Below, piece by piece: positions 24,656 through 63,190 of a stretch of 64,000 bases of DNA (the first letter of the stretch is position 1; every line of letters starts with the position of its first letter). The notes under the pieces were generated by a model that saw only the letters and a list, made by a program, of their open reading frames with translations, did not search any database and was not told the DNA's origin. The stretch is from a phage: sequence record NC_100372.1; one strand, written 5' to 3'. Both the position numbers and the translations under genes were made by a program.

Positions 24656-26212
24656 TTAATTTTCCATGTTGGATATGGAATTATCTCTGGTTGATGACAT
24701 CTTAGAAGTGCCGTTGCCAGTGGATCCTGCAGCCATTCCATCACCAGCCCTACTGATATCCTGGCCCAAGAGCTTCATTAGCTCTTCCTGATCCATGTCC
24801 TCGTCAAATCTTTCATCAAACCCACCTACTTCAAGAATCTTATTAATTACTGCAGGAGTTTTTGGCAAGTAACCTACAGCACCGATCCTCTGGACAAACT
24901 TGGAGAAGCTCTCCATGTCCACCTCTTCAATCAGACCAGGTTTCAGTTTAGGCATATCATCATCTTCAAGGATGATACCATTCAATGCCAGAAGCTGTGG
25001 AATAAGATCTTTATTGAAGGCCTCAGTGATAATATCTATATCACGCTGAACAAAATGACCATGGATAGACTGTTTTGACTCAGACAGAGAGAAGGATCCG
25101 ACGTTATCGTTACCGAGGTTAATAAAGCCAGCACCGAAACGGTCAAGAATCGCCTTCTTACGGGCATCAATCAAATCTTTAGTGGAATACTGCTTGCCCA
25201 TACCGTCAACCCCCTTCAGGGTCATGGAGTAAAGCTCTTTACCAGACTTATCTCTATCAGACGGAAGTATAAAGAAACTTTGCTCCCCACTATGGGCGTT
25301 TGCTGCGTCAAGCATAAGATCTGCAACCATTCTCCCTTCCATTGAATTCGGGTCAATACTGGCCTTGTTCAAAATATTGGAAGGAATTTTCAGCTCAAGC
25401 ACACCACCAAGGTCTTTGGAACAGCCAACAACCTCAAGGTTTTCAATCAAAACTTTCTCACGGAAAGATCTGTAGCAACCTATCATCGGTGACACACCTG
25501 CAGGGTTAGATTCTGTTCCTGACAGAGTCATGAGCATAAGCTTTTTAGCAGGGATGAAAATTTCAGGCTCATTAAAGCCTTTTGAAGGCATTGCAGCGAG
25601 AGGACCAGCCCAGCGTGCATTCTGCGTGTTTAGAAATGCATTAGGTGATTGATAAATACCTGTCAGTGTTCTACTATTCTTGTCAAAGACAAACGGCTCT
25701 GATCTGGACAAACTGGCCTGTGGTCGGAACGCAATCTTATCAATGAGAAGCATCCCGGCGTATTTGCCTTCTTTCTCTCTGCGGTATACTTTCTCAAACA
25801 GTGAAAAACCATACTCGTTAAAGGTAGCTGCGCTTCTTGCAATATCTCGAAGAGTTTGTTGGTTTGCCAAATTACGCAAAGAATACTCTATAAGCTCGGC
25901 GGCTTTCTTAGAGTCTTCACTTTTAACATTATAAAGGATCTTAAAATCATTGAATGCTTTCGTGATGAAAACATATTTTGTATCTAAGGCAGTAGCAACT
26001 GTGGAATCACATTTCATAGTCTCCACTGTGGCAATCAGCTGAGGCCAACGCAATTCCTCAACCATCATAGATTGTGATTCTGCCATAATTTGGGAAAGTG
26101 CGCCAGAACCGATCTCACTCATACGAACATTATGAGTTGGTGCGCCTGCGTTCCCAGATTTATTCACAGTTTTGGCTGTGGCGTTGTGTTTCCTGCGGTT
26201 CTTTTTGGACAC
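24656..26212 (-). CDS. putative portal protein
   Basis: 518-aa ORF immediately downstream of large terminase; size and position typical of portal. Confidence 0.55.
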   Translation of the reverse strand: MSKKNRRKHNATAKTVNKSGNAGAPTHNVRMSEIGSGALSQIMAESQSMMVEELRWPQLIATVETMKCDSTVATALDTKYVFITKAFNDFKILYNVKSEDSKKAAELIEYSLRNLANQQTLRDIARSAATFNEYGFSLFEKVYRREKEGKYAGMLLIDKIAFRPQASLSRSEPFVFDKNSRTLTGIYQSPNAFLNTQNARWAGPLAAMPSKGFNEPEIFIPAKKLMLMTLSGTESNPAGVSPMIGCYRSFREKVLIENLEVVGCSKDLGGVLELKIPSNILNKASIDPNSMEGRMVADLMLDAANAHSGEQSFFILPSDRDKSGKELYSMTLKGVDGMGKQYSTKDLIDARKKAILDRFGAGFINLGNDNVGSFSLSESKQSIHGHFVQRDIDIITEAFNKDLIPQLLALNGIILEDDDMPKLKPGLIEEVDMESFSKFVQRIGAVGYLPKTPAVINKILEVGGFDERFDEDMDQEELMKLLGQDISRAGDGMAAGSTGNGTSKMSSTRDNSISNMEN

Positions 26213-26242
26213 AAGCTTTACCCCTCAAAACAGTATAACAAA

Positions 26243-26264
26243 ATAGCCCTCGTGTCAGAGGGCT
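26243..26264 (-). terminator. hairpin (terminator-like) between terminase and portal genes
   Basis: Minus strand AGCCCTC-TGACAC-GAGGGCT followed by ATTTTGTT. Confidence 0.3.
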
Positions 26265-26314
26265 AGTATCTCCGATTACTCTATTCTACCACATCTAATT
26301 AAGATTGGCAACAC

Positions 26315-27862
26315 TTAGATAAAACGCTTGAACATAGAAGGTGATGAGATTGATGGAATCACACAAGGCAGCGCTACCTCCTCTTTCTCCAGGAAATTAA
26401 TCGCAGAAGCTACACAGTCGGCCCAGTCGTCTTTTCTGTTAAATGTTGATCTTTCCCCGTTGAACTTTTCAAGTTCAGTCAGAAATGCTTCCAGAGTGTC
26501 AGGATGGAAACTGGATTTTACAATCCTCACCATTCCTTGTTGGGCAAGATTGGCAAAAGGTGAGAACCTTGTCAGTTTAGATTTGTTGGAAGGCATTGGA
26601 TCTTCTTCAACCCTGAACCCTTCGGCGAGCAAAGATCTGGACGAGGTTAAGAACTCACTCTTACCTGCCTGACCGGGGTCTACAGAAAATACGATTATGC
26701 AATCATCTCCATCAAACTGCGCCTGTTTCCTGATGATCACATCTCGTTCCCCAGCCTTTTTACAGAACTTTCCTTCCAGACCTGTGGAATACCTACCGTC
26801 ATCCACGTTCTCAGGACAATAATCCCCGGACAGGTAATAAAAGCCGTCGCTATCTTTACTTACCTTAACACTGGCAGTAAAGTCAGGAAATTTATTACCG
26901 GAAGTTCTCTCGGTTCCTGCCTTATCCCATGCCCTGCAAGATACTGATCCAAGAGGTACTCTATCGGCATCCCGAAGGAAAGATCTTTGGAAATAGTTTG
27001 CACCCTCAGGTTTGGCAAACCAGTTGCCATGAAGAAGCTGGGCTTTTTCAAGCTCGGGTAGACCTTCAAGGAAAGCAAGGTATTCCGGGTTGTCTCTCAA
27101 ACAGACAGGATTATCGAAAATTGTTGCGCCTATAAACGAGAATGACAACGGTCTTGGCTTGATCTCCACACCCAGTCCGTTAACCGTGGTGTATTTCTCT
27201 ATTAACTCTTCTTTAGAGTCTCCCCAAATAAATTCACCGTCGCGTCGGATAAAATATCTTTTCTTACCACATTTCTCCGGATCTGGATACCCTTCATCGT
27301 CCAACCACCACCTAACCAGTTTGGCAAGCATGTGTTCTGAGTCGGGGTTACAGCTGATAACCATTCTTGATGGATACTTTGACTGAGATCGCAGACGAGA
27401 CATCAAATAGTCTATCTGCTCCCATTCGAATTGCGTGCCTTCATCGAAGCAAACCATGGTGTACTCAAGGCCTTGATGGTTAAGCTTATCTTGGACATAC
27501 TCCATGTGGCAGTATTTTACAACGGCCCCTTTTTTGCTCCTGTCCCACTTGCCAGTGCTCGGATCAAACCGTGGAAAAATAAACTTATGATCCTTCTCTC
27601 TGAACTTTGGTTTAATGTTTTCAGGCAGATCACTGTAGATAGCTACTGCTTTAGGCCATAGCCCACCCTCACCTTCCAACTGGGGAGTTGTTCTTCGGAA
27701 CATAACCACAGAGCTGTGCGGGTCATCAATAATTTTAAGCGGCATTAGCTGCAAGAGGAACGACTTGCCAGACCCAGCTGCACCTCCGATCACCAAAATA
27801 TCTGCATCGTTCTCTAGGATCATCTTCTGCTTTTCAGAACACGGTCCGTAAATCTTAGACAT
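26315..27862 (-). CDS. terL: terminase large subunit
   Basis: 515 aa; Walker A VIGGAAGSGKSFLL near N-terminus; C-terminal nuclease-like region; precedes portal. Confidence 0.85.
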   Translation of the reverse strand: MSKIYGPCSEKQKMILENDADILVIGGAAGSGKSFLLQLMPLKIIDDPHSSVVMFRRTTPQLEGEGGLWPKAVAIYSDLPENIKPKFREKDHKFIFPRFDPSTGKWDRSKKGAVVKYCHMEYVQDKLNHQGLEYTMVCFDEGTQFEWEQIDYLMSRLRSQSKYPSRMVISCNPDSEHMLAKLVRWWLDDEGYPDPEKCGKKRYFIRRDGEFIWGDSKEELIEKYTTVNGLGVEIKPRPLSFSFIGATIFDNPVCLRDNPEYLAFLEGLPELEKAQLLHGNWFAKPEGANYFQRSFLRDADRVPLGSVSCRAWDKAGTERTSGNKFPDFTASVKVSKDSDGFYYLSGDYCPENVDDGRYSTGLEGKFCKKAGERDVIIRKQAQFDGDDCIIVFSVDPGQAGKSEFLTSSRSLLAEGFRVEEDPMPSNKSKLTRFSPFANLAQQGMVRIVKSSFHPDTLEAFLTELEKFNGERSTFNRKDDWADCVASAINFLEKEEVALPCVIPSISSPSMFKRFI

Positions 27863-28149
27863 TAACCTCTCTCCTTTGGAAACAGTGTTCTTATATAGTC
27901 TTGCAAAATGATCAATTTAGCTCTATCATTACTACAAGACAGGTTATTATCCCTCATAATGCCAGAATTCACCGCATCTGGCGCACCTTTCTTCAAAGGG
28001 ATAGCTTTAGCAGGTGGTTTCATAGCACCCTCGGGAGGTTTAACAATCAACCTTCCTACATCCGGAGGGTCAATCTTGTATTCTCTCTCAACACTGGTTG
28101 CACACCCACACAATAACAAGCACAAAACAACCAGTGCAGTAACTCTCAT
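27862..28149 (-). CDS. outer-membrane spanin (Rz1-like lipoprotein)
   Basis: 95 aa; signal peptide with lipobox LLLCGC, Pro-rich mature region; overlaps the i-spanin gene end. Confidence 0.55.
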   Translation of the reverse strand: MRVTALVVLCLLLCGCATSVEREYKIDPPDVGRLIVKPPEGAMKPPAKAIPLKKGAPDAVNSGIMRDNNLSCSNDRAKLIILQDYIRTLFPKERG

Positions 28150-28544
28150 CGAACCTCCTGATTGATACTCTCATTATAAATATCTATTAGCTGATCAGGA
28201 AGTGTTGACTTCTTACCTTCAGGAGATTGGAGGTAGATAATCTGCTTTTCTTTACCTGCCTTCTCAGCCATATTTAATTTATCCTGTAGATCAGAAAGAG
28301 ATTTTTCAAGGTTTTTAACCTCCTCTGCGTGGCCCATTTTAATTTTGTCGGCTTGCTTTTGTTGTTGGTCAAGGATCCGTTCCCACTTCAACTCTGTTGC
28401 TGACACACCTTCCTGATAAGCATCATTGAGCTTAGAGTTAAACCAATACACGGCCCCAAGATAAGCCATGCCTATAGCCGCTGCAAAAACTAAACCTTTT
28501 ATGATCCCTCTGTATTTACTCATCAATGTTAAGACTGAAATCAT
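28146..28544 (-). CDS. inner-membrane spanin (Rz-like)
   Basis: 132 aa; N-terminal transmembrane segment (GLVFAAAIGMAYLGAVYWF) followed by charged coiled-coil periplasmic domain. Confidence 0.55.
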   Translation of the reverse strand: MISVLTLMSKYRGIIKGLVFAAAIGMAYLGAVYWFNSKLNDAYQEGVSATELKWERILDQQQKQADKIKMGHAEEVKNLEKSLSDLQDKLNMAEKAGKEKQIIYLQSPEGKKSTLPDQLIDIYNESINQEVR

Positions 28545-28568
28545 TTTAAGGCTCCAGAAACGAAAAAA

Positions 28569-28593
28569 CCCCGCAGCTATACAGCTAACGGGG
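28569..28593 (-). terminator. terminator-like hairpin closing the tRNA operon
   Basis: Minus strand CCCCG...CGGGG hairpin followed by TTTTTTCG, between the 89-aa ORF and the spanin gene. Confidence 0.4.
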
Positions 28594-28649
28594 CGGGTTA
28601 AAATTGAGTAACCTAAATAGATCGAAACTAACTAAAAGGAGACTAATAC

Positions 28650-28919
28650 TTATCGAGGCACTCGGTGGATGATTCTGACAGTAACCGCATTCTCATTCAT
28701 CAAGTAAGCATCCACATCTCTGTAAATATAAAACTTCTGCTCGCTATCAACAACACAAGCTACTGCCCCTTCAGAGTTGTCTTCAAAGAAGACCACAACT
28801 GCATCGCAGCTTAGTTCATGATACGACTCTCGAAGATTTACAGCAAGAGGGTTGAAATCTTCACGAAAATCTACAGTATGGGTTGGATTTACACGTTCTA
28901 CAATTTTAAGTGTATACAT
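28650..28919 (-). CDS. hypothetical protein co-transcribed with tRNA cluster
   Basis: 89-aa ORF, RBS AAGGAACC upstream of ATG at 28919, located 46 nt downstream of tRNA-Pro. Confidence 0.4.
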   Translation of the reverse strand: MYTLKIVERVNPTHTVDFREDFNPLAVNLRESYHELSCDAVVVFFEDNSEGAVACVVDSEQKFYIYRDVDAYLMNENAVTVRIIHRVPR

Positions 28920-28965
28920 TTTAAAGGTTCCTTTTGTGTGTATATATTTAAAGTATAACTAAAGG

Positions 28966-29042
28966 TGGTCTCCACGGAGTGATTCGAACACTCGACCTCC
29001 TGATCCCAAATCAGGCGCTCTACCAAGCTGAGCTACGCGGAG
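28966..29042 (-). tRNA. tRNA-Pro (anticodon TGG), CCA encoded
   Basis: Manual fold: acceptor CTCCGCG/CGTGGAG (one G-T), D arm GCTC/GAGC, anticodon stem CCTGA/TCAGG with loop TTTGGGA, T arm GAGTG-TTCGAAT-CACTC, 3' ACCA. Confidence 0.75.
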
Positions 29043-29053
29043 TATTTATTATT

Positions 29054-29128
29054 TGGTGGCCCTGGGTGGAATTGAACCACCGTCTGGCGATTATGAGTCG
29101 CTTGCTTGAACCTTCCAGCTACAGGGCC
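29054..29128 (-). tRNA. tRNA-Met (anticodon CAT; initiator, elongator or Ile2-type undetermined), CCA encoded
   Basis: Manual fold: acceptor GGCCCTG/CAGGGCC, anticodon loop CTCATAA, T loop TTCAATT, 3' ACCA. Confidence 0.7.
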
Positions 29129-29129
29129 A

Positions 29130-29205
29130 TGGTGCTGATGGCAGGACTTGAACCTGCAACCTATTGATTACAAATCAATTGCACTGCCAATTGTGCTACA
29201 TCAGC
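29130..29205 (-). tRNA. tRNA-Thr (anticodon TGT), CCA encoded
   Basis: Manual fold: acceptor GCTGATG/CATCAGC, anticodon stem ATTGA/TCAAT with loop TTTGTAA, T arm GCAGG-TTCAAGT-CCTGC; 1 nt after tRNA-Met. Confidence 0.75.
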
Positions 29206-29211
29206 AAAAGG

Positions 29212-29308
29212 TGCTAGGTGATGGAATCGAACCACCTATGTATTCAACGACTACCTCGTCTATTTTCAGGATTAAAAATCCTCGCCCTTGCCAAAGGGCT
29301 TACCTAGC
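29212..29308 (-). ncRNA. atypical 97-nt tRNA-like element (possible Lys-UUU-type anticodon loop; not a canonical fold)
   Basis: Perfect 7-bp acceptor GCTAGGT/ACCTAGC, D arm GCCC-TTTGGCAA-GGGC, T arm GGTGG-TTCGATT-CCATC, but the central region is two short hairpins (AGGATTTTTAATCCT and GACGAGGTAGTCGTT), about 31 nt between anticodon-like hairpin and T stem; A at position 8; 3' end ACCT not CCA. Confidence 0.4.
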
Positions 29309-29406
29309 GCAATATGTTGACCATGTGGCTAGTCGGCGATGACGACTGTAACATTTGATAATCCGGTTCTGCTTCCGGCTTTCGCTTAATTACAAGGTCA
29401 ACAATG

Positions 29407-29497
29407 TGGCGGAGAGTAATGGAATCGAACCATCATCGAGTCATCCTCAACGGGACGGTTTTCAAGACCGCTTGAGCACCATTGCTCCCTACCCTCC
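29407..29497 (-). tRNA. tRNA-Ser (anticodon TGA), type II with long variable arm, CCA encoded
   Basis: Manual fold: acceptor GGAGGGT/ACTCTCC (one G-T), anticodon stem GCGGT/ACCGT with loop CTTGAAA, variable arm about 17 nt, T arm GATGG-TTCGATT-CCATT, 3' GCCA. Confidence 0.7.
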
Positions 29498-29611
29498 TTT
29501 ATAAATTACACTGATAATGACACTGATTTTCGAGCAGTTAGTGACTAGTATAAACGACGATAAATATCAATGTCATTATCTGTATGATTTATGCATTTAA
29601 AAATATAAATT

Positions 29612-29698
29612 TGGTGGGGAGTGGTGGAGTCGAACCACCCGAGTCGCAATGACAATAGATTTACAGTCTACACCGCTACCTCTACGGGATAACTCCCC
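29612..29698 (-). tRNA. tRNA-Tyr (anticodon GTA), long variable arm, CCA encoded
   Basis: Manual fold: acceptor GGGGAGT/ACTCCCC, anticodon stem GTAGA/TCTAT with loop CTGTAAA, T arm GGTGG-TTCGACT-CCACC, 3' ACCA. Confidence 0.7.
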
Positions 29699-29702
29699 AA
29701 TT

Positions 29703-29777
29703 TGGCACCCCGTACTGGACTCGAACCAGTGTCAACGGCTTAGAAGGCCGCTGCTTTATCCACTAAGCTAACAGGGC
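29703..29777 (-). tRNA. tRNA-Arg (anticodon TCT), CCA encoded
   Basis: Manual fold: acceptor GCCCTGT/ACGGGGT (two G-T), D arm GCTT/AAGC, anticodon stem GCGGC/GCCGT with loop CTTCTAA, T arm ACTGG-TTCGAGT-CCAGT, 3' GCCA. Confidence 0.7.
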
Positions 29778-29835
29778 ACTGGGTGGCTTTCTTTTACACC
29801 TGAGCCGCCAGAAAAGGTGGGAGACCATGTTTATA

Positions 29836-29864
29836 ATATTACACTGTTAGGCAAAGTTTGTCAA
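29836..29864 (-). promoter_or_regulatory. consensus sigma70-type promoter for the tRNA operon
   Basis: Minus strand TTGACA (29864-29859), 17-nt spacer, TAATAT (29841-29836); about 60 nt upstream of tRNA-Arg 5' end. Confidence 0.6.
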
Positions 29865-29873
29865 GAAAATATT

Positions 29874-30212
29874 TTAACTATTGCCAACAGGCTGTATTTC
29901 TGTGGTAAATGGCATAAAAGGTGCTGGTTTTTCAGCCTCTTCTACTACCACCTCTTCCTCTTCACCAAACATCTCATCATATTCTTCCTGCATTCGGTCT
30001 GCCTTATCAAGAACATACTCTGCAATGCTTTGACGAATATTTTGTTTGGTTTTCGGGTCCAACATCAGCTCTCTTAAAACTTTGTGAGCTTCTGGAACCA
30101 TCGCTATAAAAGATTCCTTCATATCAAGAATGTTCTTCTCTAGCTGAATGGCGTTGGACTCCTCTTTCAGAGGTCTGCCTCTACGGCGACGCTTTTTAGT
30201 TGTATCCGCCAT
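29874..30212 (-). CDS. small basic protein with AT-hook-like motif
   Basis: Start set at internal ATG 30212 with RBS GGAGGA (ORF track start at 30332 lacks RBS); N-terminus MADTTKKRRRRGRPLKEE has GRP AT-hook core; acidic C-terminus. Confidence 0.4.
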   Translation of the reverse strand: MADTTKKRRRRGRPLKEESNAIQLEKNILDMKESFIAMVPEAHKVLRELMLDPKTKQNIRQSIAEYVLDKADRMQEEYDEMFGEEEEVVVEEAEKPAPFMPFTTEIQPVGNS

Positions 30213-30557
30213 GTTTCCTCCATTATCACGTGATAGGTGGATTTTATCACGGCAAATACTGATTGTCAAGTTCGCCGCAGGGTGGTATTCCCTGCGACTT
30301 GCCCAGCGTCCTGGACCAGCAAGACCCAACAAGTGGGTTACCAGATACCCATTACCGCGCTCTGGCTCGACCTTATTACAGGTTGGCTGGGGTCACATCG
30401 TCATGTGCTGGCTGCCCCTACCATTTTAAGTGTGGTGCACTATCAAGCCCTCTAAGGGGAACTCAGCCTTCTCCGAACCCTGTTTCAAAGCATCCGGAGA
30501 TAAAGCCATCAAACTCATCTTTAAATTGGATATTCATCATGATACACGAAAACAACC

Positions 30558-30800
30558 TCATTGTAAAGCACAAATAAATAAAACATACTTAATTTGTTTG
30601 TTATCGGGCTCAGGGTAGAAGTAGAAGATCTTGCTATCACCAATCTGAACACCACCATCCCAACAACATAAACCATAACCAGTATTCATACAAGCTAAGT
30701 CGTTGGCAAAATCTATTGCATCATCTAGTGCACGAAATTCACCTTCATCTTCTAAATAATCCTCATTCATGGAACGGAAAACGAGCTTAACCTTAAACAT
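30558..30800 (-). CDS. hypothetical protein
   Basis: 80-aa ORF on the minus strand. Confidence 0.3.
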   Translation of the reverse strand: MFKVKLVFRSMNEDYLEDEGEFRALDDAIDFANDLACMNTGYGLCCWDGGVQIGDSKIFYFYPEPDNKQIKYVLFICALQ

Positions 30801-30876
30801 AGCATTACCTGTAGACCTCGTAAGTTAAAATTGTATCACATCATATTGCAGATCTTATCAGGTAACATTATTTTTG

Positions 30877-31086
30877 TCAACAGATTCCGGCCTTATCCTT
30901 CCTGTCTGCGTATTCTTTAATCGCAACCTCACCTGCATTGGTGACTAGATCTTCAAAGTAATTCTCAAGCTCCTCGTCAATGTCCGGTGACCAGCTCTTT
31001 TTCCTGTCGGTGTGAATTGCAGACTTGTTGAACTTATTACAGTTCTTTGCTACCGGATTGTTCATTAAGCTCTCCTCAACGTTCAT
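30877..31086 (-). CDS. hypothetical protein
   Basis: 69-aa ORF; stop overlaps the start region of the upstream 192-aa gene. Confidence 0.25.
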   Translation of the reverse strand: MNVEESLMNNPVAKNCNKFNKSAIHTDRKKSWSPDIDEELENYFEDLVTNAGEVAIKEYADRKDKAGIC

Positions 31087-38604: not shown

Positions 38605-39075
38605 ATGAAACTTGATAAAAATGTTCAACGAAAAGCTTTCTTGGATATGATCGCATATTCAGAAGGTACAGATAACGGTAGACAACCTACCAAGGATCGG
38701 GGCTATGATGTCATAGTCGGTGGCAAGCTGTTTAGCGATTACAGCAAGCATCCGGGTGTGTACGTTAAGCTAAATGCTAAACTTACCTCCTCTGCTGCGG
38801 GGCGCTACCAAGTTTTGGAGAAGTTTGCTAAACACTATATGAAACAGTTAGGATTACCAGATTTTGGCCCTGCCAGTCAGGATAAGATCGCACTACAATT
38901 GATCCGTGAGTGCAAGGCGCTCGATGATATTGATGAAGGTCGTATTCATCAGGCCATCCATCTTTGCAGATCCCGATGGGCAAGCCTTCCTGGTGCAGGG
39001 TACGGTCAGCATGAACAGAAGATTGAGAAGTTGATCGAGGTGTTTAAAAAGGCAGGCGGCATTGTCCTAGATTAA
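38605..39075 (+). CDS. endolysin, lambda R-like lytic transglycosylase
   Basis: 156 aa; near-colinear similarity to lambda R: QRKAFLDMIAYSEGTDNGRQPTKDRGYDVIVGG..., GAGRYQ, WASLPGAGYGQHEQK. Confidence 0.85.
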   Translation: MKLDKNVQRKAFLDMIAYSEGTDNGRQPTKDRGYDVIVGGKLFSDYSKHPGVYVKLNAKLTSSAAGRYQVLEKFAKHYMKQLGLPDFGPASQDKIALQLIRECKALDDIDEGRIHQAIHLCRSRWASLPGAGYGQHEQKIEKLIEVFKKAGGIVLD

Positions 39076-39138: not shown

Positions 39139-39345
39139 ATGAAAGATTTTCTGTTGGCAATTTTGTTCATGGCAGCATGTCTGGCCTGTGGTGTCGTGTT
39201 TGCAGGTGAAACAGCGTATCTTGTCGATGTATATCGGGACAATGGTAAACGTATTTGCCTTTATGAAACAAGCCAAGGTGAGCTCTACGAGCTTGTTAAA
39301 CAAGGCGAGGCTGGATCTTGTCCTCGGACTCACTTCTTCGAATAA
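39139..39345 (+). CDS. small secreted/lipoprotein-like protein (possible lysis accessory)
   Basis: 68 aa; N-terminal hydrophobic segment LLAILFMAACLACG with possible lipobox Cys; immediately after endolysin. Confidence 0.35.
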   Translation: MKDFLLAILFMAACLACGVVFAGETAYLVDVYRDNGKRICLYETSQGELYELVKQGEAGSCPRTHFFE

Positions 39346-60113: not shown

Positions 60114-60347
60114 ATGAAAGTTAAATTTCTTACAGATTTAGGGTACCCTTCCTTGGTTGACTGCGTTGGTAAAATTGTGGAAGCAAAACGGCTATCTGCA
60201 AACGATAATGTTGTCATGGTTAAGGGAAAAGATTTACTAGCTGCAGGTGCAGAGTCTGGCAGGATCTCTCCTGACTATACGTATTACCTGTCTTTAAGTA
60301 ATCTACCAGAACGAGGCGGCAAAGGCCTTGAAGTTGTGGAGGAGTGA
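60114..60347 (+). CDS. hypothetical protein
   Basis: Start set at ATG 60114 after RBS GGAGG; 77 aa. Confidence 0.3.
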   Translation: MKVKFLTDLGYPSLVDCVGKIVEAKRLSANDNVVMVKGKDLLAAGAESGRISPDYTYYLSLSNLPERGGKGLEVVEE

Positions 60348-60889
60348 CAGGTATGCTTCTGATTAACTGGGAAGACCTCTATGGGGACAAAGACCCTGTT
60401 GCGTTTGTTGATCGTAGGTGGAGGTACACTGAAGAACAACTGGCTGCAAAAAATTTAACTGCAAAACGCAGAAAGATCATCCAGTGCAAGTACAAATACG
60501 CACAGTTTGCTGCAAAAGTGTCTCCACAAATCGAGAGTTTTGTACTTAAATTGTATGACGAGTACCTCAAATTCAAATTGGATTTTGTACAGGTATACCG
60601 TGCACAGGTACGTCCAGATACCAACATCTGTAGATGGAAGGTTGTTTGTGATGGTAAAGATTTGCCGCTCAGTTTGACAATTGAGTGGCGTTGGGGGTAT
60701 CATGAGTGCGGTTTGTATGATATTTGGGATGTCATTGTAGATCCTGCTAAGTACCTGAACACAGAGGAGCTGGAATATATCAATAAGGTTATTCTAGATA
60801 TGTTTTTCAGCTACACCCATGAAAACTCTGAGAAAGAACGGGATAATTTTCTTGACACCCTCGGCAACCACCTGCAGTGTACAATTTAA
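60344..60889 (+). CDS. hypothetical protein
   Basis: 181-aa ORF, Trp/Tyr-rich. Confidence 0.35.
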   Translation: MTGMLLINWEDLYGDKDPVAFVDRRWRYTEEQLAAKNLTAKRRKIIQCKYKYAQFAAKVSPQIESFVLKLYDEYLKFKLDFVQVYRAQVRPDTNICRWKVVCDGKDLPLSLTIEWRWGYHECGLYDIWDVIVDPAKYLNTEELEYINKVILDMFFSYTHENSEKERDNFLDTLGNHLQCTI

Positions 60890-60907: not shown

Positions 60908-61144
60908 ATGAGTATAGATGCTGTGCTGATAGGTTACCTGGTAGTAGCTGTTATAACAGCAGTAATCTTGGCAGGTATATGCATCGTGTCTACACGAAGG
61001 GTGAAGTTTGATGATTTTATCACCATCATCACTGCTGCGCCCTTTTGGCCTGTTGTTATCTTCATCGTAATAATGTGCCTAGTTGATTACCACAAGAATA
61101 TCCGTAAGGAGAAAAAGGAGAGTAGGGATGGATACCGCACCTAA
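60908..61144 (+). CDS. small two-TMD membrane protein (holin-like topology)
   Basis: 78 aa; two hydrophobic helices (VLIGYLVVAVITAVILAGICIV; IITAAPFWPVVIFIVIMCLV) and charged C-terminus KNIRKEKKESRDGYRT. Confidence 0.35.
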   Translation: MSIDAVLIGYLVVAVITAVILAGICIVSTRRVKFDDFITIITAAPFWPVVIFIVIMCLVDYHKNIRKEKKESRDGYRT

Positions 61145-61257
61145 AACTGTTTATACTGTTCTTAAAGAGATTGCGTTCTACGCAGATCTTAGCCGGGCAC
61201 CTTTATGGGAAAAGAATATGTATTTAAAATGGTGCGTGAAATTAGGGGGGCCTTCTA

Positions 61258-61386
61258 ATGTTTCAAGCCATGTTTATTGAAATGCTCTCTGGGGTATTAC
61301 TGCTGGTAGCCATTTTGGGTGGCGCGGCACTGATGTATAATTATCTTGAAAAAGGGGACAGTAATGACAAAAAAATAAATCCTTAG
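61258..61386 (+). CDS. small single-TMD peptide (42 aa)
   Basis: MFQAMFIEMLSGVLLLVAILGGAALMYNYLEKGDSNDKKINP; ends in an A7 run followed in the -1 frame by a 60-codon start-less open frame. Confidence 0.3.
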   Translation: MFQAMFIEMLSGVLLLVAILGGAALMYNYLEKGDSNDKKINP

Positions 61387-61546: not shown

Positions 61547-62008
61547 GTGACGATGTTTGTTAAATATGTAAAAACGTGCCTCAACAACCTTGGTAGAGAG
61601 CATTGGTACACACTGCTTGAAAAAGGAGAAATTTTAACAAAATCTGGAAAGATAACTTTGATACCTTTGGACGATAAAGACCCGTCACTACTTGTCATAG
61701 ATGATTACGTTACAGGTGTGTCGTACGAGGTATCTGTGGAGAGGTTAATACGCAGATCTGGAGGTCCTTATGACCGAAGAGAGTATGTTTTCGATTCCGT
61801 TACAGAGAAGGAAGATCCGTCCCTAATGTTTAGAATGGTAATCAGGGATATGAAATCATCTATAAATAGGATCGTAAAGGACATTAAGGAGCCTTTTAGG
61901 GTAAAAGTTAATAAGTTTTTTGATTCTAAGATCAACATACTCACCGTTGTGCTAGGCGTAATTCAACTTCTGTTAATTTTGCACTATTTTGAACTGTTGT
62001 TTAAGTAA
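61547..62008 (+). CDS. hypothetical protein with C-terminal transmembrane segment
   Basis: 153 aa; C-terminal ILTVVLGVIQLLLILHYF hydrophobic helix; GTG or ATG (61553) start. Confidence 0.35.
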   Translation: MTMFVKYVKTCLNNLGREHWYTLLEKGEILTKSGKITLIPLDDKDPSLLVIDDYVTGVSYEVSVERLIRRSGGPYDRREYVFDSVTEKEDPSLMFRMVIRDMKSSINRIVKDIKEPFRVKVNKFFDSKINILTVVLGVIQLLLILHYFELLFK

Positions 62009-62909: not shown

Positions 62910-63095
62910 ATGAAGCACTATTGTCTGTCTGGTAGGATGGGGGTGGATTGTGATTGGGTTTTCTTAAAACTTGTCAGCGTTCGAGAGTCCATCCCAGAGG
63001 AAGAGCAAGAAAGTGAGCTGATGTCATGGATCAACTATTACGGCAACACTTTCCGGCATGTCAAAATGGAAGAGCTGCCAAACGAGGCTGATTGA
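62910..63095 (+). CDS. hypothetical protein
   Basis: 61-aa ORF. Confidence 0.3.
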   Translation: MKHYCLSGRMGVDCDWVFLKLVSVRESIPEEEQESELMSWINYYGNTFRHVKMEELPNEAD

Positions 63096-63190
63096 TTATG
63101 GTCGCATCAATATTAACGTTTATGGGTGGCGTGGCATTCGGATTCATTCTTTGTCTGTTTATAGTTATCATGGCTATGCGAGGCTGAATT

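What the first reader, a model, noticed from the sequence alone, without database searches (positions are those of the whole stretch)
27862..28544. Lysis genes are dispersed: spanin pair upstream of terminase, endolysin 10 kb away on the other strand, holin not adjacent
Rz-like (N-terminal TMD plus coiled coil) and Rz1-like (lipobox LLLCGC, Pro-rich) genes overlap at 28146-28149 and sit between the tRNA operon and terminase, whereas the lambda-R-like endolysin is at 38605..39075 (plus strand), followed by a small signal-peptide protein. The only holin-like candidate seen is the two-TMD protein at 60908..61144. A non-clustered lysis cassette suggests separate temporal control of each component.
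Basis: partly seen in the sequence, partly recalled or inferred. Interest (0 to 1): 0.4.

Follow-up and report, generated by a model that had tools for sequence, protein, structure and literature searches.

The report
Known scattered lysis genes of rV5-like phage
The window comes from an rV5-like E. coli phage, and the genes that burst the host cell really are scattered as described. This layout is conserved and already published for this phage group, so the finding is correct but ordinary; only the identity of the membrane-hole protein (holin) is still open.

Summary
An i-spanin gene (28146..28544, minus strand) and an o-spanin gene (27862..28149, minus strand) overlap by ATGA. They run straight into the large terminase gene, which begins with a TAATG overlap. 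A lambda-R-type endolysin lies 10 kb away on the plus strand (38605..39075). It is followed by a small secreted protein (39139..39345). The only two-TMD small protein in the window is at 60908..61144.

The window is 99% identical to Vequintavirus (rV5-like) phages in which these genes are already annotated. The literature already covers each point:
- The rV5 spanin family is catalogued (Kongari 2018).
- The spanins sit next to the terminase gene rather than in a lysis cassette (CB7 paper, 2020).
- The 78-aa protein, rV5 ORF129, was proposed as a holin "separated from the lysin as in T4" (Kropinski 2013).

New detail from this work:
- The order tRNA cluster, spanins, TerL is conserved across genera.
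- The protein next to the endolysin belongs to a secreted family that is not linked to lysis genes elsewhere.
- The holin remains unresolved. A rival 122-aa candidate lies outside the window.

"Separate temporal control" is untested, and known lysis biology does not require it. Novelty: already known. Interest: low.

The parts
28146..28544 (-). i-spanin (Rz-like): N-terminal TMD and a helical periplasmic domain, 132 aa
   Evidence: ORF. phrog_4297 'Rz-like spanin' at 1e-48. Hydrophobic segment 13-35. AF2 helices 3-99 and 115-131. Annotated i-spanin in Murica, ECP2303 and BASEL phages. SD sequence GGAG lies 7 nt upstream of the ATG.
27862..28149 (-). o-spanin (Rz1-like): outer-membrane lipoprotein precursor, 95 aa, lipobox LCG|C16, proline-rich mature part
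   Evidence: ORF. phrog_1267 'Rz-like spanin' at 4e-22. Lipobox pattern ends at Cys16, +2 is Ala, 9 of 80 mature residues are Pro, and there is one further Cys at position 72. The lipobox G-C and KPPAxAM are invariant in Mydovirus and Henunavirus homologs.
28146..28149 (-). ATGA stop/start overlap of the i-spanin and o-spanin genes, with an AGGAGG SD 4 nt upstream, implying translational coupling
   Evidence: Read directly from the sequence.
26315..27862 (-). Large terminase subunit, uninterrupted 515 aa; its start overlaps the o-spanin stop (TAATG)
   Evidence: Terminase_6N at 4.6e-20 and Terminase_6C at 2.7e-6. Sequence. Annotated TerL in relatives.
28562..28594 (-). Intrinsic terminator (11-bp GC-rich stem plus U6) ending a few bases before the i-spanin SD; it leaves no room for a promoter between terminator and gene
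   Evidence: RNA fold gives -16.9 kcal/mol, z-score -2.0. Annotated as a terminator at the equivalent place in Murica.
26244..26265 (-). Intrinsic terminator after TerL, closing the three-gene unit of i-spanin, o-spanin and TerL
   Evidence: Terminator scan. Annotated as a terminator in Murica.
28966..29777 (-). Cluster of seven tRNA genes upstream of the spanin-TerL unit
   Evidence: ARAGORN. Rfam finds 6 of the 7. The same tRNA-spanin-TerL order occurs in Mydo and pEp_SNUABM_01.
38605..39075 (+). Soluble lambda-R-type endolysin (lytic transglycosylase), 156 aa, with no signal or SAR sequence
   Evidence: PDB 1AM7 and 3D3D at about 2e-56, with SEGTDNG conserved. phrog_90 endolysin at 3.9e-55. 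No hydrophobic segment. Equivalent to rV5 gp89.
39139..39345 (+). 68-aa secreted or lipid-anchored periplasmic protein of unknown function (phrog_4641); not a holin
   Evidence: Homologs in Mydovirus, Seunavirus and Certrevirus carry classic Sec signal peptides (..VFA|T), two invariant Cys and an AGSCP motif. They sit at a syntenic site without an endolysin. The family has 175 clusters, including a copy on a Yersinia island next to an integrase. The Vequintavirus copy also fits a lipobox at Cys14.
60908..61144 (+). 78-aa two-TMD protein with a K/R-rich C-terminus, homolog of rV5 ORF129; best in-window holin candidate, unproven
   Evidence: TMD scan. Strong SD AAGGAGG. TMD2 and the loop are conserved while TMD1 varies. 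Proposed as a holin in the rV5 paper. No holin family hit in Pfam, PHROGs or NCBIfam. Restricted to rV5-like phages.
60353..60889 (+). 178-aa protein of unknown function that always precedes the 78-aa gene (phrog_13467). The BASEL label 'putative glycosidase' was not reproduced.
   Evidence: Found in the same number of phage records (115) as the 78-aa gene, with the same FV3/JES2013-type outliers (about 51% versus about 59% identity). No Pfam, PDB or NCBIfam hit. AF2 pLDDT 62 and no Foldseek match at E<=0.001.
61547..62008 (+). Homolog of rV5 ORF133, a virion-associated protein with a C-terminal TMD, four tightly packed genes downstream of the holin candidate
   Evidence: phrog_7821 'virion structural protein' at 2.8e-65. 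rV5 gp133 was detected in virions by mass spectrometry. Gene order confirmed in NC_011041. No terminator between 60353 and 62008.

Best explanation
The window is part of a Vequintavirus (rV5-like) myophage genome. Its host-lysis genes lie in the dispersed layout that is standard for this phage subfamily.

Three components are identified with confidence.
1. A two-component spanin. The i-spanin is anchored in the inner membrane by an N-terminal TMD and reaches across the periplasm as a long helix. The o-spanin is a proline-rich lipoprotein sorted to the outer membrane. By analogy with lambda Rz/Rz1, the pair bridges the periplasm and fuses or disrupts the outer membrane once the cell wall has been cut.
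2. A soluble lambda-R-type lytic transglycosylase. It accumulates in the cytoplasm and needs a hole in the inner membrane to reach the wall.
3. An unidentified holin that supplies this hole and sets the time of lysis. The best candidate in the window is the 78-aa two-TMD protein at 60908..61144.

The spanin genes are translationally coupled to each other and to the large terminase gene. These three genes form a unit bracketed by intrinsic terminators, so the spanins are probably made with the late packaging proteins.

What is shown: gene identities, topology signals, couplings and conserved synteny. What is inferred: spanin and holin function, and expression timing.

The dispersal is most simply an inherited genome architecture. 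It is tolerated because only holin triggering controls timing. It is not evidence of a special regulatory design.
For: - Identity of the phage: 99.3% DNA identity to Vequintavirus genomes in which these genes are annotated i-spanin, o-spanin and endolysin.
- Spanins: PHROG spanin families at 1e-48 and 4e-22; TMD, lipobox, proline content and Cys; helical model; the rV5 family is listed in the spanin census PMC6139136; lipobox and motifs conserved at 35-40% identity.
- Position next to TerL: conserved in Mydovirus and Henunavirus and stated for CB7, rV5 and PVP-SE1 in PMC7344957.
- Endolysin: lambda lysozyme at 1.5e-56 with the catalytic motif; no TMD.
- Operon limits.
- Holin candidate: two TMDs, a basic tail and a strong SD. 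It is rV5 ORF129, proposed as a holin in PMC3606486. It lies in an unbroken run of genes with the virion protein ORF133 homolog, which suggests late expression.
- Holin not settled in the field: LL12 and Gotham announcements.
Against: - No experiment exists for any of these proteins in rV5-like phages.
- The 78-aa protein matches no holin family.
- It is never next to an endolysin or spanin gene in any relative. This includes two of the three distant homologs found by a profile search of 1.8 billion proteins, which are syntenic with the window; the third sits in an uninformative context.
- It is not detectable outside rV5-like phages.
- A different two-TMD protein of 122 aa, outside the window, is labelled 'putative holin' in a BASEL Vequintavirus genome.
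- The i-spanin has no cysteine, and the o-spanins of other genera lack the periplasmic Cys. Disulfide-linked dimerisation as in lambda therefore cannot be general for this family.
- The terminator that abuts the i-spanin SD means the source of spanin-TerL transcription is unknown.
Confidence: 0.85

Rival explanations
1. The 78-aa protein at 60908..61144 is not the holin. The real holin lies outside the window. One candidate is the 122-aa two-TMD membrane protein that a BASEL Vequintavirus genome labels 'putative holin'; another small membrane protein is also possible. The 78-aa protein would then be a different membrane factor, such as a superinfection-exclusion, host-takeover or virion-assembly helper.
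For: - tblastn of the 122-aa protein (NHEP1 60435-60803) shows 'putative holin' in phage WalterGehring and 'membrane protein' elsewhere.
- That protein is 93-100% conserved in 118 Vequintavirus records.
- Several other small membrane proteins exist outside the window.
- The 78-aa protein has no holin-family hit and is never next to an endolysin or spanin gene.
Against: - The 122-aa protein also has no holin-family hit.
- It sits in a block of very small genes typical of early host-takeover regions.
- The 78-aa gene, by contrast, is co-oriented and tightly packed with a virion protein gene.
- The rV5 authors found ORF129 to be the only protein called two-TMD by both TMHMM and Phobius.
Confidence: 0.3
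2. The lysis genes are dispersed so that each component has its own temporal control: spanins late with packaging, and endolysin and holin on separate schedules in the plus-strand block.
For: - The spanins are in the minus-strand morphogenesis unit and coupled to TerL.
- The endolysin and the 78-aa gene are 22 kb apart in the plus-strand unit that also holds the DNA ligase and ribonucleotide reductase genes.
- The late-type motif TGGTAAAATA reported for rV5 is enriched in the window: 16 matches against 5.9 expected. Nine of the 16 lie on the minus strand at or below 27522, that is in the structural-gene and TerL region, and none lies directly upstream of the endolysin.
Against: - No transcript data were found for any Vequintavirinae phage.
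- sigma-70-like matches around the candidates are at chance level.
- In lambda and T4, lysis timing depends on the holin alone, so separate control of endolysin and spanins has no known functional role (established knowledge; T4 has the same dispersal).
- The layout is conserved synteny across genera, which inheritance explains sufficiently.
Confidence: 0.2
3. The pair at 27862-28544 is not a spanin. It would instead be a membrane protein and lipoprotein pair with another role tied to packaging, occupying the slot where a small terminase gene is often found.
For: - The pair sits immediately upstream of TerL and is translationally coupled to it.
- No small terminase is annotated nearby in relatives.
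- No experimental test of this spanin family was found.
Against: - An N-terminal TMD and a lipoprotein signal would place both proteins outside the cytoplasm. That is incompatible with a small-terminase role.
- Both match spanin PHROGs.
- The architecture fits every sequence criterion of two-component spanins.
- T7 and SP6-type phages likewise carry their spanin genes beside the terminase genes (and established knowledge of T7 genes 18.5/18.7).
Confidence: 0.03

Closest known systems
rV5 spanin family (i-/o-spanin of phages rV5, FV3, JES-2013; Kongari et al. 2018, PMC6139136) and the annotated spanins of Murica, ECP2303 and the BASEL Vequintavirus phages
   Same: These are the same genes. The i-spanin is 88-100% identical across 118 Vequintavirus records. 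They have the same ATGA junction and the same position upstream of TerL.
   Different: Nothing of substance differs. In this window TerL is uninterrupted, whereas in rV5 and LL12 (and apparently ECP26) it is split by introns or homing endonucleases.
Phage T4 lysis genes (e, t, pseT.3/pseT.2, rI, rIIA/rIIB)
   Same: The endolysin, holin and spanin genes are unlinked, and the spanin genes are separate ORFs joined at a stop/start overlap. rIIA/rIIB homologs are present in the same genome type.
   Different: The T4 endolysin is a T4-lysozyme-type muramidase, and its holin T has one TMD with a large periplasmic domain. Here the endolysin is a lambda-R-type transglycosylase and the candidate holin is a two-TMD hairpin. 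No RI-like antiholin is identified.
Lambda S-R-Rz/Rz1 lysis cassette
   Same: The endolysin is a close homolog of lambda R (E=1.5e-56). The spanin has the same two-component logic: TMD plus helical i-spanin, and proline-rich lipoprotein o-spanin.
   Different: Lambda clusters all four genes behind one late promoter, with Rz1 embedded inside Rz. Here the genes lie 10 kb and 33 kb apart on both strands, the spanin genes overlap by only 4 bases, and no S-like three-TMD holin is present.
T7/SP6-type podophages (spanin genes 18.5/18.7 between the terminase genes)
   Same: The spanin genes lie beside the terminase gene rather than beside the endolysin. This parallel is noted in PMC7344957.
   Different: In T7 the o-spanin gene is embedded in the i-spanin gene and the pair lies between the small and large terminase genes. 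Here the pair is preceded by a tRNA cluster and a terminator.

Membership tests
Two-component spanin (Rz/Rz1 type) | i-spanin: a single N-terminal transmembrane domain (type II, N-in/C-out) | tested here: met
   There is one hydrophobic segment at residues ~13-35, preceded by K/R residues. It is conserved in position in Mydovirus and Henunavirus homologs.
Two-component spanin (Rz/Rz1 type) | i-spanin periplasmic domain is mostly alpha-helical (coiled-coil-like) with a linker | tested here: met
   The single-sequence AF2 model has helix 3-99, a disordered stretch 100-114 and helix 115-131, with mean pLDDT 72. 34% of periplasmic residues are charged. No dedicated coiled-coil predictor was available.
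Two-component spanin (Rz/Rz1 type) | o-spanin: lipoprotein signal with a lipobox Cys and no Lol-avoidance Asp at +2 | tested here: met
   The PROSITE-type lipobox pattern ends at Cys16 (L-C-G-C) and +2 is Ala. The G-C is invariant across three genera.
Two-component spanin (Rz/Rz1 type) | Small proline-rich mature o-spanin | tested here: met
   The mature protein is 80 aa with 9 Pro (11.2%). The KPPAxAM.PP motif is conserved.
Two-component spanin (Rz/Rz1 type) | Adjacent i- and o-spanin genes (embedded, overlapped or separated architecture) | tested here: met
   ATGA overlap at 28146-28149. The census lists the family under the separated architecture.
Two-component spanin (Rz/Rz1 type) | Periplasmic cysteine(s) for homotypic intermolecular disulfide bonds | tested here: inconclusive
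   The o-spanin has one periplasmic Cys (position 72) and the i-spanin has none. The Cys is absent from the Mydovirus and Henunavirus o-spanins.
Two-component spanin (Rz/Rz1 type) | Outer-membrane disruption activity and complementation of lambda Rz/Rz1 | not testable with these tools
   No experimental report for this family was found in the searched literature.
Lambda-R-type endolysin (lytic transglycosylase) | Sequence homology to lambda lysozyme over the whole fold, including the catalytic Glu in the SEGT motif | tested here: met
   1AM7 and 3D3D at E about 2e-56 over residues 4-154, with 'ysegtdngrq' aligned to 'wsegtdngrq'. That this Glu is Glu19 and catalytic in lambda R is from established knowledge.
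Lambda-R-type endolysin (lytic transglycosylase) | Cytoplasmic (no signal peptide or SAR domain), hence holin-dependent | tested here: met
   The hydropathy scan finds no hydrophobic segment. The N-terminus MKLDKNVQRKAF is polar.
Holin (class II, two TMDs) | Small protein with two TMDs and a charged C-terminal tail | tested here: met
   78 aa, with hydrophobic segments ~5-27 and ~37-59 and a tail DYHKNIRKEKKESRDGYRT containing 7 K/R.
Holin (class II, two TMDs) | Homology to a described holin family | tested here: not met
   No holin hit in Pfam, PHROGs (phrog_10061, unknown function) or NCBIfam.
Holin (class II, two TMDs) | Linkage to endolysin or spanin genes in this or related genomes | tested here: not met
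   The gene is 22 kb from the endolysin. In all relatives, including two of the three distant profile hits, it sits in the PhoH-ClpP region after a protein of unknown function of about 156-181 aa, directly or with one small ORF between; the third hit's context is uninformative.
Holin (class II, two TMDs) | Late expression | tested here: inconclusive
   The gene is co-oriented and tightly packed with the virion protein ORF133 homolog, with no terminator between them. No transcript data exist.
Holin (class II, two TMDs) | Lethal, energy-poison-triggerable hole formation that releases endolysin | not testable with these tools
   This requires expression experiments.

The most novel reading that the evidence does not exclude
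rV5-like phages may use a lysis pathway that differs from the lambda/T4 scheme. The genome type carries two wall hydrolases: a cytoplasmic lambda-R-type transglycosylase, and a Sec-exported SleB-like hydrolase that sits directly upstream of rIIA/rIIB. It has no recognisable holin family. It also has a conserved secreted 68-aa protein next to the endolysin, which could act as a periplasmic lysis regulator. Under this reading, the terminator that abuts the spanin-TerL unit would gate spanin and terminase synthesis by regulated read-through. None of this is excluded by my data, and none of it is supported beyond gene content.
Probability: 0.07. Interest if true: 0.5.

Novelty: already known. Interest (0 to 1): 0.1.

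Why it matters
The finding matters little as it stands. It re-derives published annotation of a well-sampled phage genus with more than 100 near-identical genomes. The only open point it touches is which protein is the holin of Vequintavirus phages. These phages are widely used in E. coli O157 biocontrol and phage-therapy cocktails, and different annotators name different candidates or none. Settling this would be useful for annotation and for engineering lysis timing, but it would not change concepts.

Tried and rejected
1. Tested whether the 68-aa gene next to the endolysin (39139..39345) could be the missing holin or antiholin. Rejected.
   - Its homologs have cleavable Sec signal peptides and a conserved two-Cys mature domain.
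   - In other genera they sit at the syntenic site without any endolysin.
   - One copy is island cargo next to an integrase in Yersinia.

2. Tested whether the gene upstream of the 78-aa candidate (60353..60889, labelled 'putative glycosidase' in BASEL genomes) is a second wall hydrolase, which would make a hidden holin-endolysin pair. Unsupported.
   - No Pfam, NCBIfam or PDB sequence hit.
   - Only two homolog clusters exist.
   - The AF2 model is weak (pLDDT 62), and Foldseek finds nothing at E<=0.001 and nothing lysozyme-like.

3. Looked for distant homologs of the 78-aa protein that might sit in a lysis cassette elsewhere. No lysis linkage found.
   - A word-indexed search found only rV5-like phages.
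   - A full HMM profile scan of 1.8 billion representatives added three small proteins.
   - Two of these are syntenic with the window and one is in an uninformative context.

4. Searched for the rV5 'late' motif TGGTAAAATA upstream of the endolysin and holin candidate.
   - It is enriched in the window, and nine of the 16 matches lie on the minus strand across the structural-gene and TerL region.
   - Only a one-mismatch copy at 60167, inside an ORF, lies near the candidate. This is not decisive.

5. sigma-70 and terminator scans around the candidates gave chance-level promoter counts.

6. Literature search for Vequintavirinae transcriptomes found nothing usable.
Full report
**What the window is.** The region 26000-31000 is 99.3% identical to Escherichia phage S127 BCL3 and 99.2% identical to ECP2303 and B9-1. 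It is 96-97% identical to FV3, Murica and other Vequintavirus (rV5-like) myophages. Positions 40000-64000 are 99.8% identical to phage ECP26. The Center for Phage Technology annotation of Murica lists, in the same order and on the same strands, the tRNA cluster, a small ORF, a terminator, i-spanin, o-spanin, TerL and a terminator. About 10 kb further, on the other strand, it lists DNA ligase, endolysin and a small hypothetical protein.

The i-spanin (28146..28544, minus strand, 132 aa) has these features:
- One N-terminal hydrophobic segment.
- A periplasmic part that is 34% charged residues.
- A single-sequence AlphaFold model with a long helix 3-99, a disordered linker and a helix 115-131 (pLDDT 72).

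The o-spanin (27862..28149, minus strand, 95 aa) has these features:
- It starts MRVTALVVLCLLLCGC and fits the PROSITE-type lipoprotein pattern, with the lipidated Cys at 16 and Ala at +2.
- The mature protein is 11% proline and has one further Cys.

The gene junctions were read from the sequence:
- The two genes share ATGA at 28146-28149, with an AGGAGG Shine-Dalgarno sequence 4 nt upstream.
- The o-spanin stop and the TerL start share one base (TAATG).

TerL (26315..27862) hits Terminase_6N and Terminase_6C. Both spanins hit PHROG families annotated 'Rz-like spanin' (1e-48 and 4e-22).

The endolysin (38605..39075, plus strand) aligns with lambda lysozyme 1AM7 at E=1.5e-56, including the SEGTDNG active-site motif. 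It has no hydrophobic N-terminus.

A hydropathy scan of all ORFs on the coding strands leaves these plausible small membrane proteins in the window:
- the two spanins;
- the 68-aa ORF at 39139..39345;
- the 78-aa two-TMD ORF at 60908..61144;
- two tiny one-TMD ORFs (61258..61386 and 63092..63187);
- a 153-aa protein with a C-terminal TMD (61547..62008).

It is not a chance pattern, because the lipobox G-C and the KPPAxAM and ILQxYIR motifs of the o-spanin are invariant in homologs only 35-40% identical.

**What is already published.**
- The rV5 genome paper names gp89 as the lysin. [quoted passage not shown] ORF129 of rV5 is the homolog of 60908..61144.
- The spanin census lists an rv5 family for both subunits (PMC6139136).
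[quoted passage not shown] It also notes the stop/start overlap and the parallel with podophages such as SP6 (PMC7344957).
- Genome announcements for LL12 and Gotham say that the endolysin and spanins are identifiable but the holin is not.

All elements of the finding are thus in the literature.

**Surroundings and conservation.**
- The i-spanin has homologs in 196 phage records across Vequintavirinae.
- In Proteus phage Mydo (Mydovirus) and Erwinia phage pEp_SNUABM_01 (Henunavirus) the order is tRNA cluster, then a 485-aa hypothetical gene, i-spanin, o-spanin, TerL. The position of the spanins next to TerL is therefore an inherited subfamily trait.
- In the window the three-gene unit is bracketed by intrinsic terminators. 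One lies at 28562-28594, with an 11-bp stem, a U6 tract and a folding energy of -16.9 kcal/mol (annotated in Murica). The other lies at 26244-26265.
- The upstream terminator ends only a few bases before the i-spanin Shine-Dalgarno sequence. This leaves no room for a dedicated promoter. Expression must come from read-through or from a start upstream of the hairpin. This step is inference.

**The gene next to the endolysin.** The 68-aa protein is nearly invariant in Vequintavirus. It has 33-42% identical homologs in Mydovirus, Seunavirus, Certrevirus and others.
- Those homologs carry textbook Sec signal peptides (…SSPVFA|TV…). The mature part has two invariant cysteines and an AGSCP motif.
- They lie at the syntenic position, before the HNH and exonuclease genes. 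They follow an SPFH-type lipoprotein gene rather than an endolysin.
- A profile search finds 175 clusters. Nearly all are on 130-150 kb phage contigs. One is on a Yersinia enterocolitica island beside an integrase.
- The Vequintavirus copy also fits a lipobox at Cys14.

I conclude that it is a secreted or lipid-anchored periplasmic protein of unknown role, not a holin. Its adjacency to the endolysin is specific to Vequintavirus.

**The holin question.** The 78-aa protein has a strong Shine-Dalgarno sequence. Its loop and second TMD are conserved (AAPFWP motif) and its first TMD is variable. The evidence against a holin role is as follows:
- It matches no holin family in Pfam, PHROGs or NCBIfam.
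- It is confined to rV5-like phages: 115 phage records and 26 clusters.
- A full profile scan of 1.8 billion representative proteins adds only three distant members. Two of them lie in the same PhoH-ClpP neighbourhood and the third is in an uninformative context. Gene neighbourhood therefore gives no lysis linkage.

The gene that always precedes it (60353..60889) is called 'putative glycosidase' in BASEL genomes. I could not reproduce that label. It has no family or PDB hits, the AF2 model is weak, and no Foldseek match is significant.

One piece of context favours late expression. The candidate lies in an unbroken run of genes ending in the homolog of rV5 ORF133, which was detected in virions by mass spectrometry.

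One piece of evidence counts against the assignment. In the 99%-identical phage NHEP1, the part of the genome outside the window holds several other small membrane proteins. One of them, a 122-aa two-TMD protein, is annotated 'putative holin' in the BASEL phage WalterGehring. I put the 78-aa protein at roughly 0.35-0.4 as the holin, the 122-aa protein somewhat lower, and the remainder on something else.

**Interpretation.** The components work as in the standard three-step model. Only their identities are shown here.
1. The soluble lambda-R-type transglycosylase needs a holin-made hole in the inner membrane.
2. The spanin complex then removes the outer membrane.
3. The timing is set by the holin.

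Under that model, dispersal of the other genes has no necessary regulatory meaning. T4 shows the same dispersal. No transcript data were found, and promoter scans are at chance level. The rV5 'late' motif is enriched in the window (16 matches against 5.9 expected). Nine of the 16 matches lie on the minus strand at or below 27522, in the structural-gene and TerL region, and none lies directly upstream of the endolysin.

**Verdict.** Everything essential is already known for this phage group. The remaining open item is experimental identification of the holin.

Noticed in passing
window 29210..29308 (-): One member of the tRNA cluster is abnormal. It is 99 nt long, ARAGORN reports an undetermined identity with a 4-base anticodon (atcc), and Rfam scores it at only 35.5 bits. 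Murica annotates the equivalent gene as 'tRNA-OTHER (Asp|Gly)'. It could be an intron-containing, frameshift-suppressor-like or degenerate tRNA.
   Followed up: partly
window 28562..28594 (-): An intrinsic terminator ends only a few bases before the i-spanin ribosome-binding site, so the i-spanin/o-spanin/TerL unit has no room for its own promoter after it. Expression of terminase and spanins may depend on terminator read-through from the tRNA/ORF transcripts.
   Followed up: partly
window 39139..39345 (+); L003:2986-3180, L004:2986-3180, L005:3001-3207; L017:5001-5198: This 68-aa secreted protein family has two invariant Cys and an AGSCP motif. It is conserved across Vequintavirinae and relatives (175 clusters). 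It also occurs as cargo next to an integrase on a Yersinia enterocolitica chromosomal island. Its function is unknown. The Vequintavirus copy additionally fits a lipobox at Cys14.
   Followed up: partly
outside the window: L012:42820-43320 (-) = NHEP1 PQ511146.1 88719..89219: The same genome type carries a second wall hydrolase, a 166-aa SleB-like protein (PF07486 at 2e-19). It has a Sec-type signal peptide (MKTKIFAIILSAFLSLPVVAA|PK) and lies directly upstream of rIIA and rIIB on the same strand. An exported hydrolase next to the lysis-inhibition gene homologs is a further dispersed lysis-related locus.
   Followed up: partly
outside the window: L012:14536-14904 (-) = NHEP1 60435..60803: A 122-aa protein with two N-terminal TMDs (phrog_13090) is 93-100% conserved in 118 Vequintavirus records. 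It is annotated 'putative holin' in BASEL phage WalterGehring but 'membrane protein' or 'hypothetical' elsewhere. Annotators therefore disagree on the holin of this genus.
   Followed up: partly
window 60353..60889 (+): The label 'putative glycosidase' used in BASEL Vequintavirus genomes for this gene could not be reproduced. It has no Pfam, NCBIfam or PDB hits, only two homolog clusters exist in 5.8 billion proteins, the AF2 model has pLDDT 62, and no Foldseek match is significant.
   Followed up: yes
window 26315..27862 (-): The large terminase gene is one uninterrupted 515-codon ORF here. The rV5 paper and the LL12 announcement describe TerL in those phages as split by introns or a homing endonuclease. 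The alignments to ECP26, HMD-6 and others break into 2-3 pieces with endonuclease genes under the match.
   Followed up: no
window 61128..61386 and 63092..63187 (+): A run of very small overlapping ORFs follows the holin candidate, including one-TMD peptides of 42 and 31 aa. They lead to 61547..62008, the homolog of rV5 ORF133, which is a virion-associated protein with a C-terminal TMD. This is an unusual membrane-protein-rich mini-cluster inside the nucleotide-metabolism block.
   Followed up: partly
window-wide, e.g. 2405, 16550, 20075 (-): The rV5 'late' motif TGGTAAAATA occurs 16 times with at most one mismatch, against 5.9 expected. None of 100 shuffles reaches 16. Nine of the matches lie on the minus strand in the structural-gene and TerL region.
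   Followed up: partly
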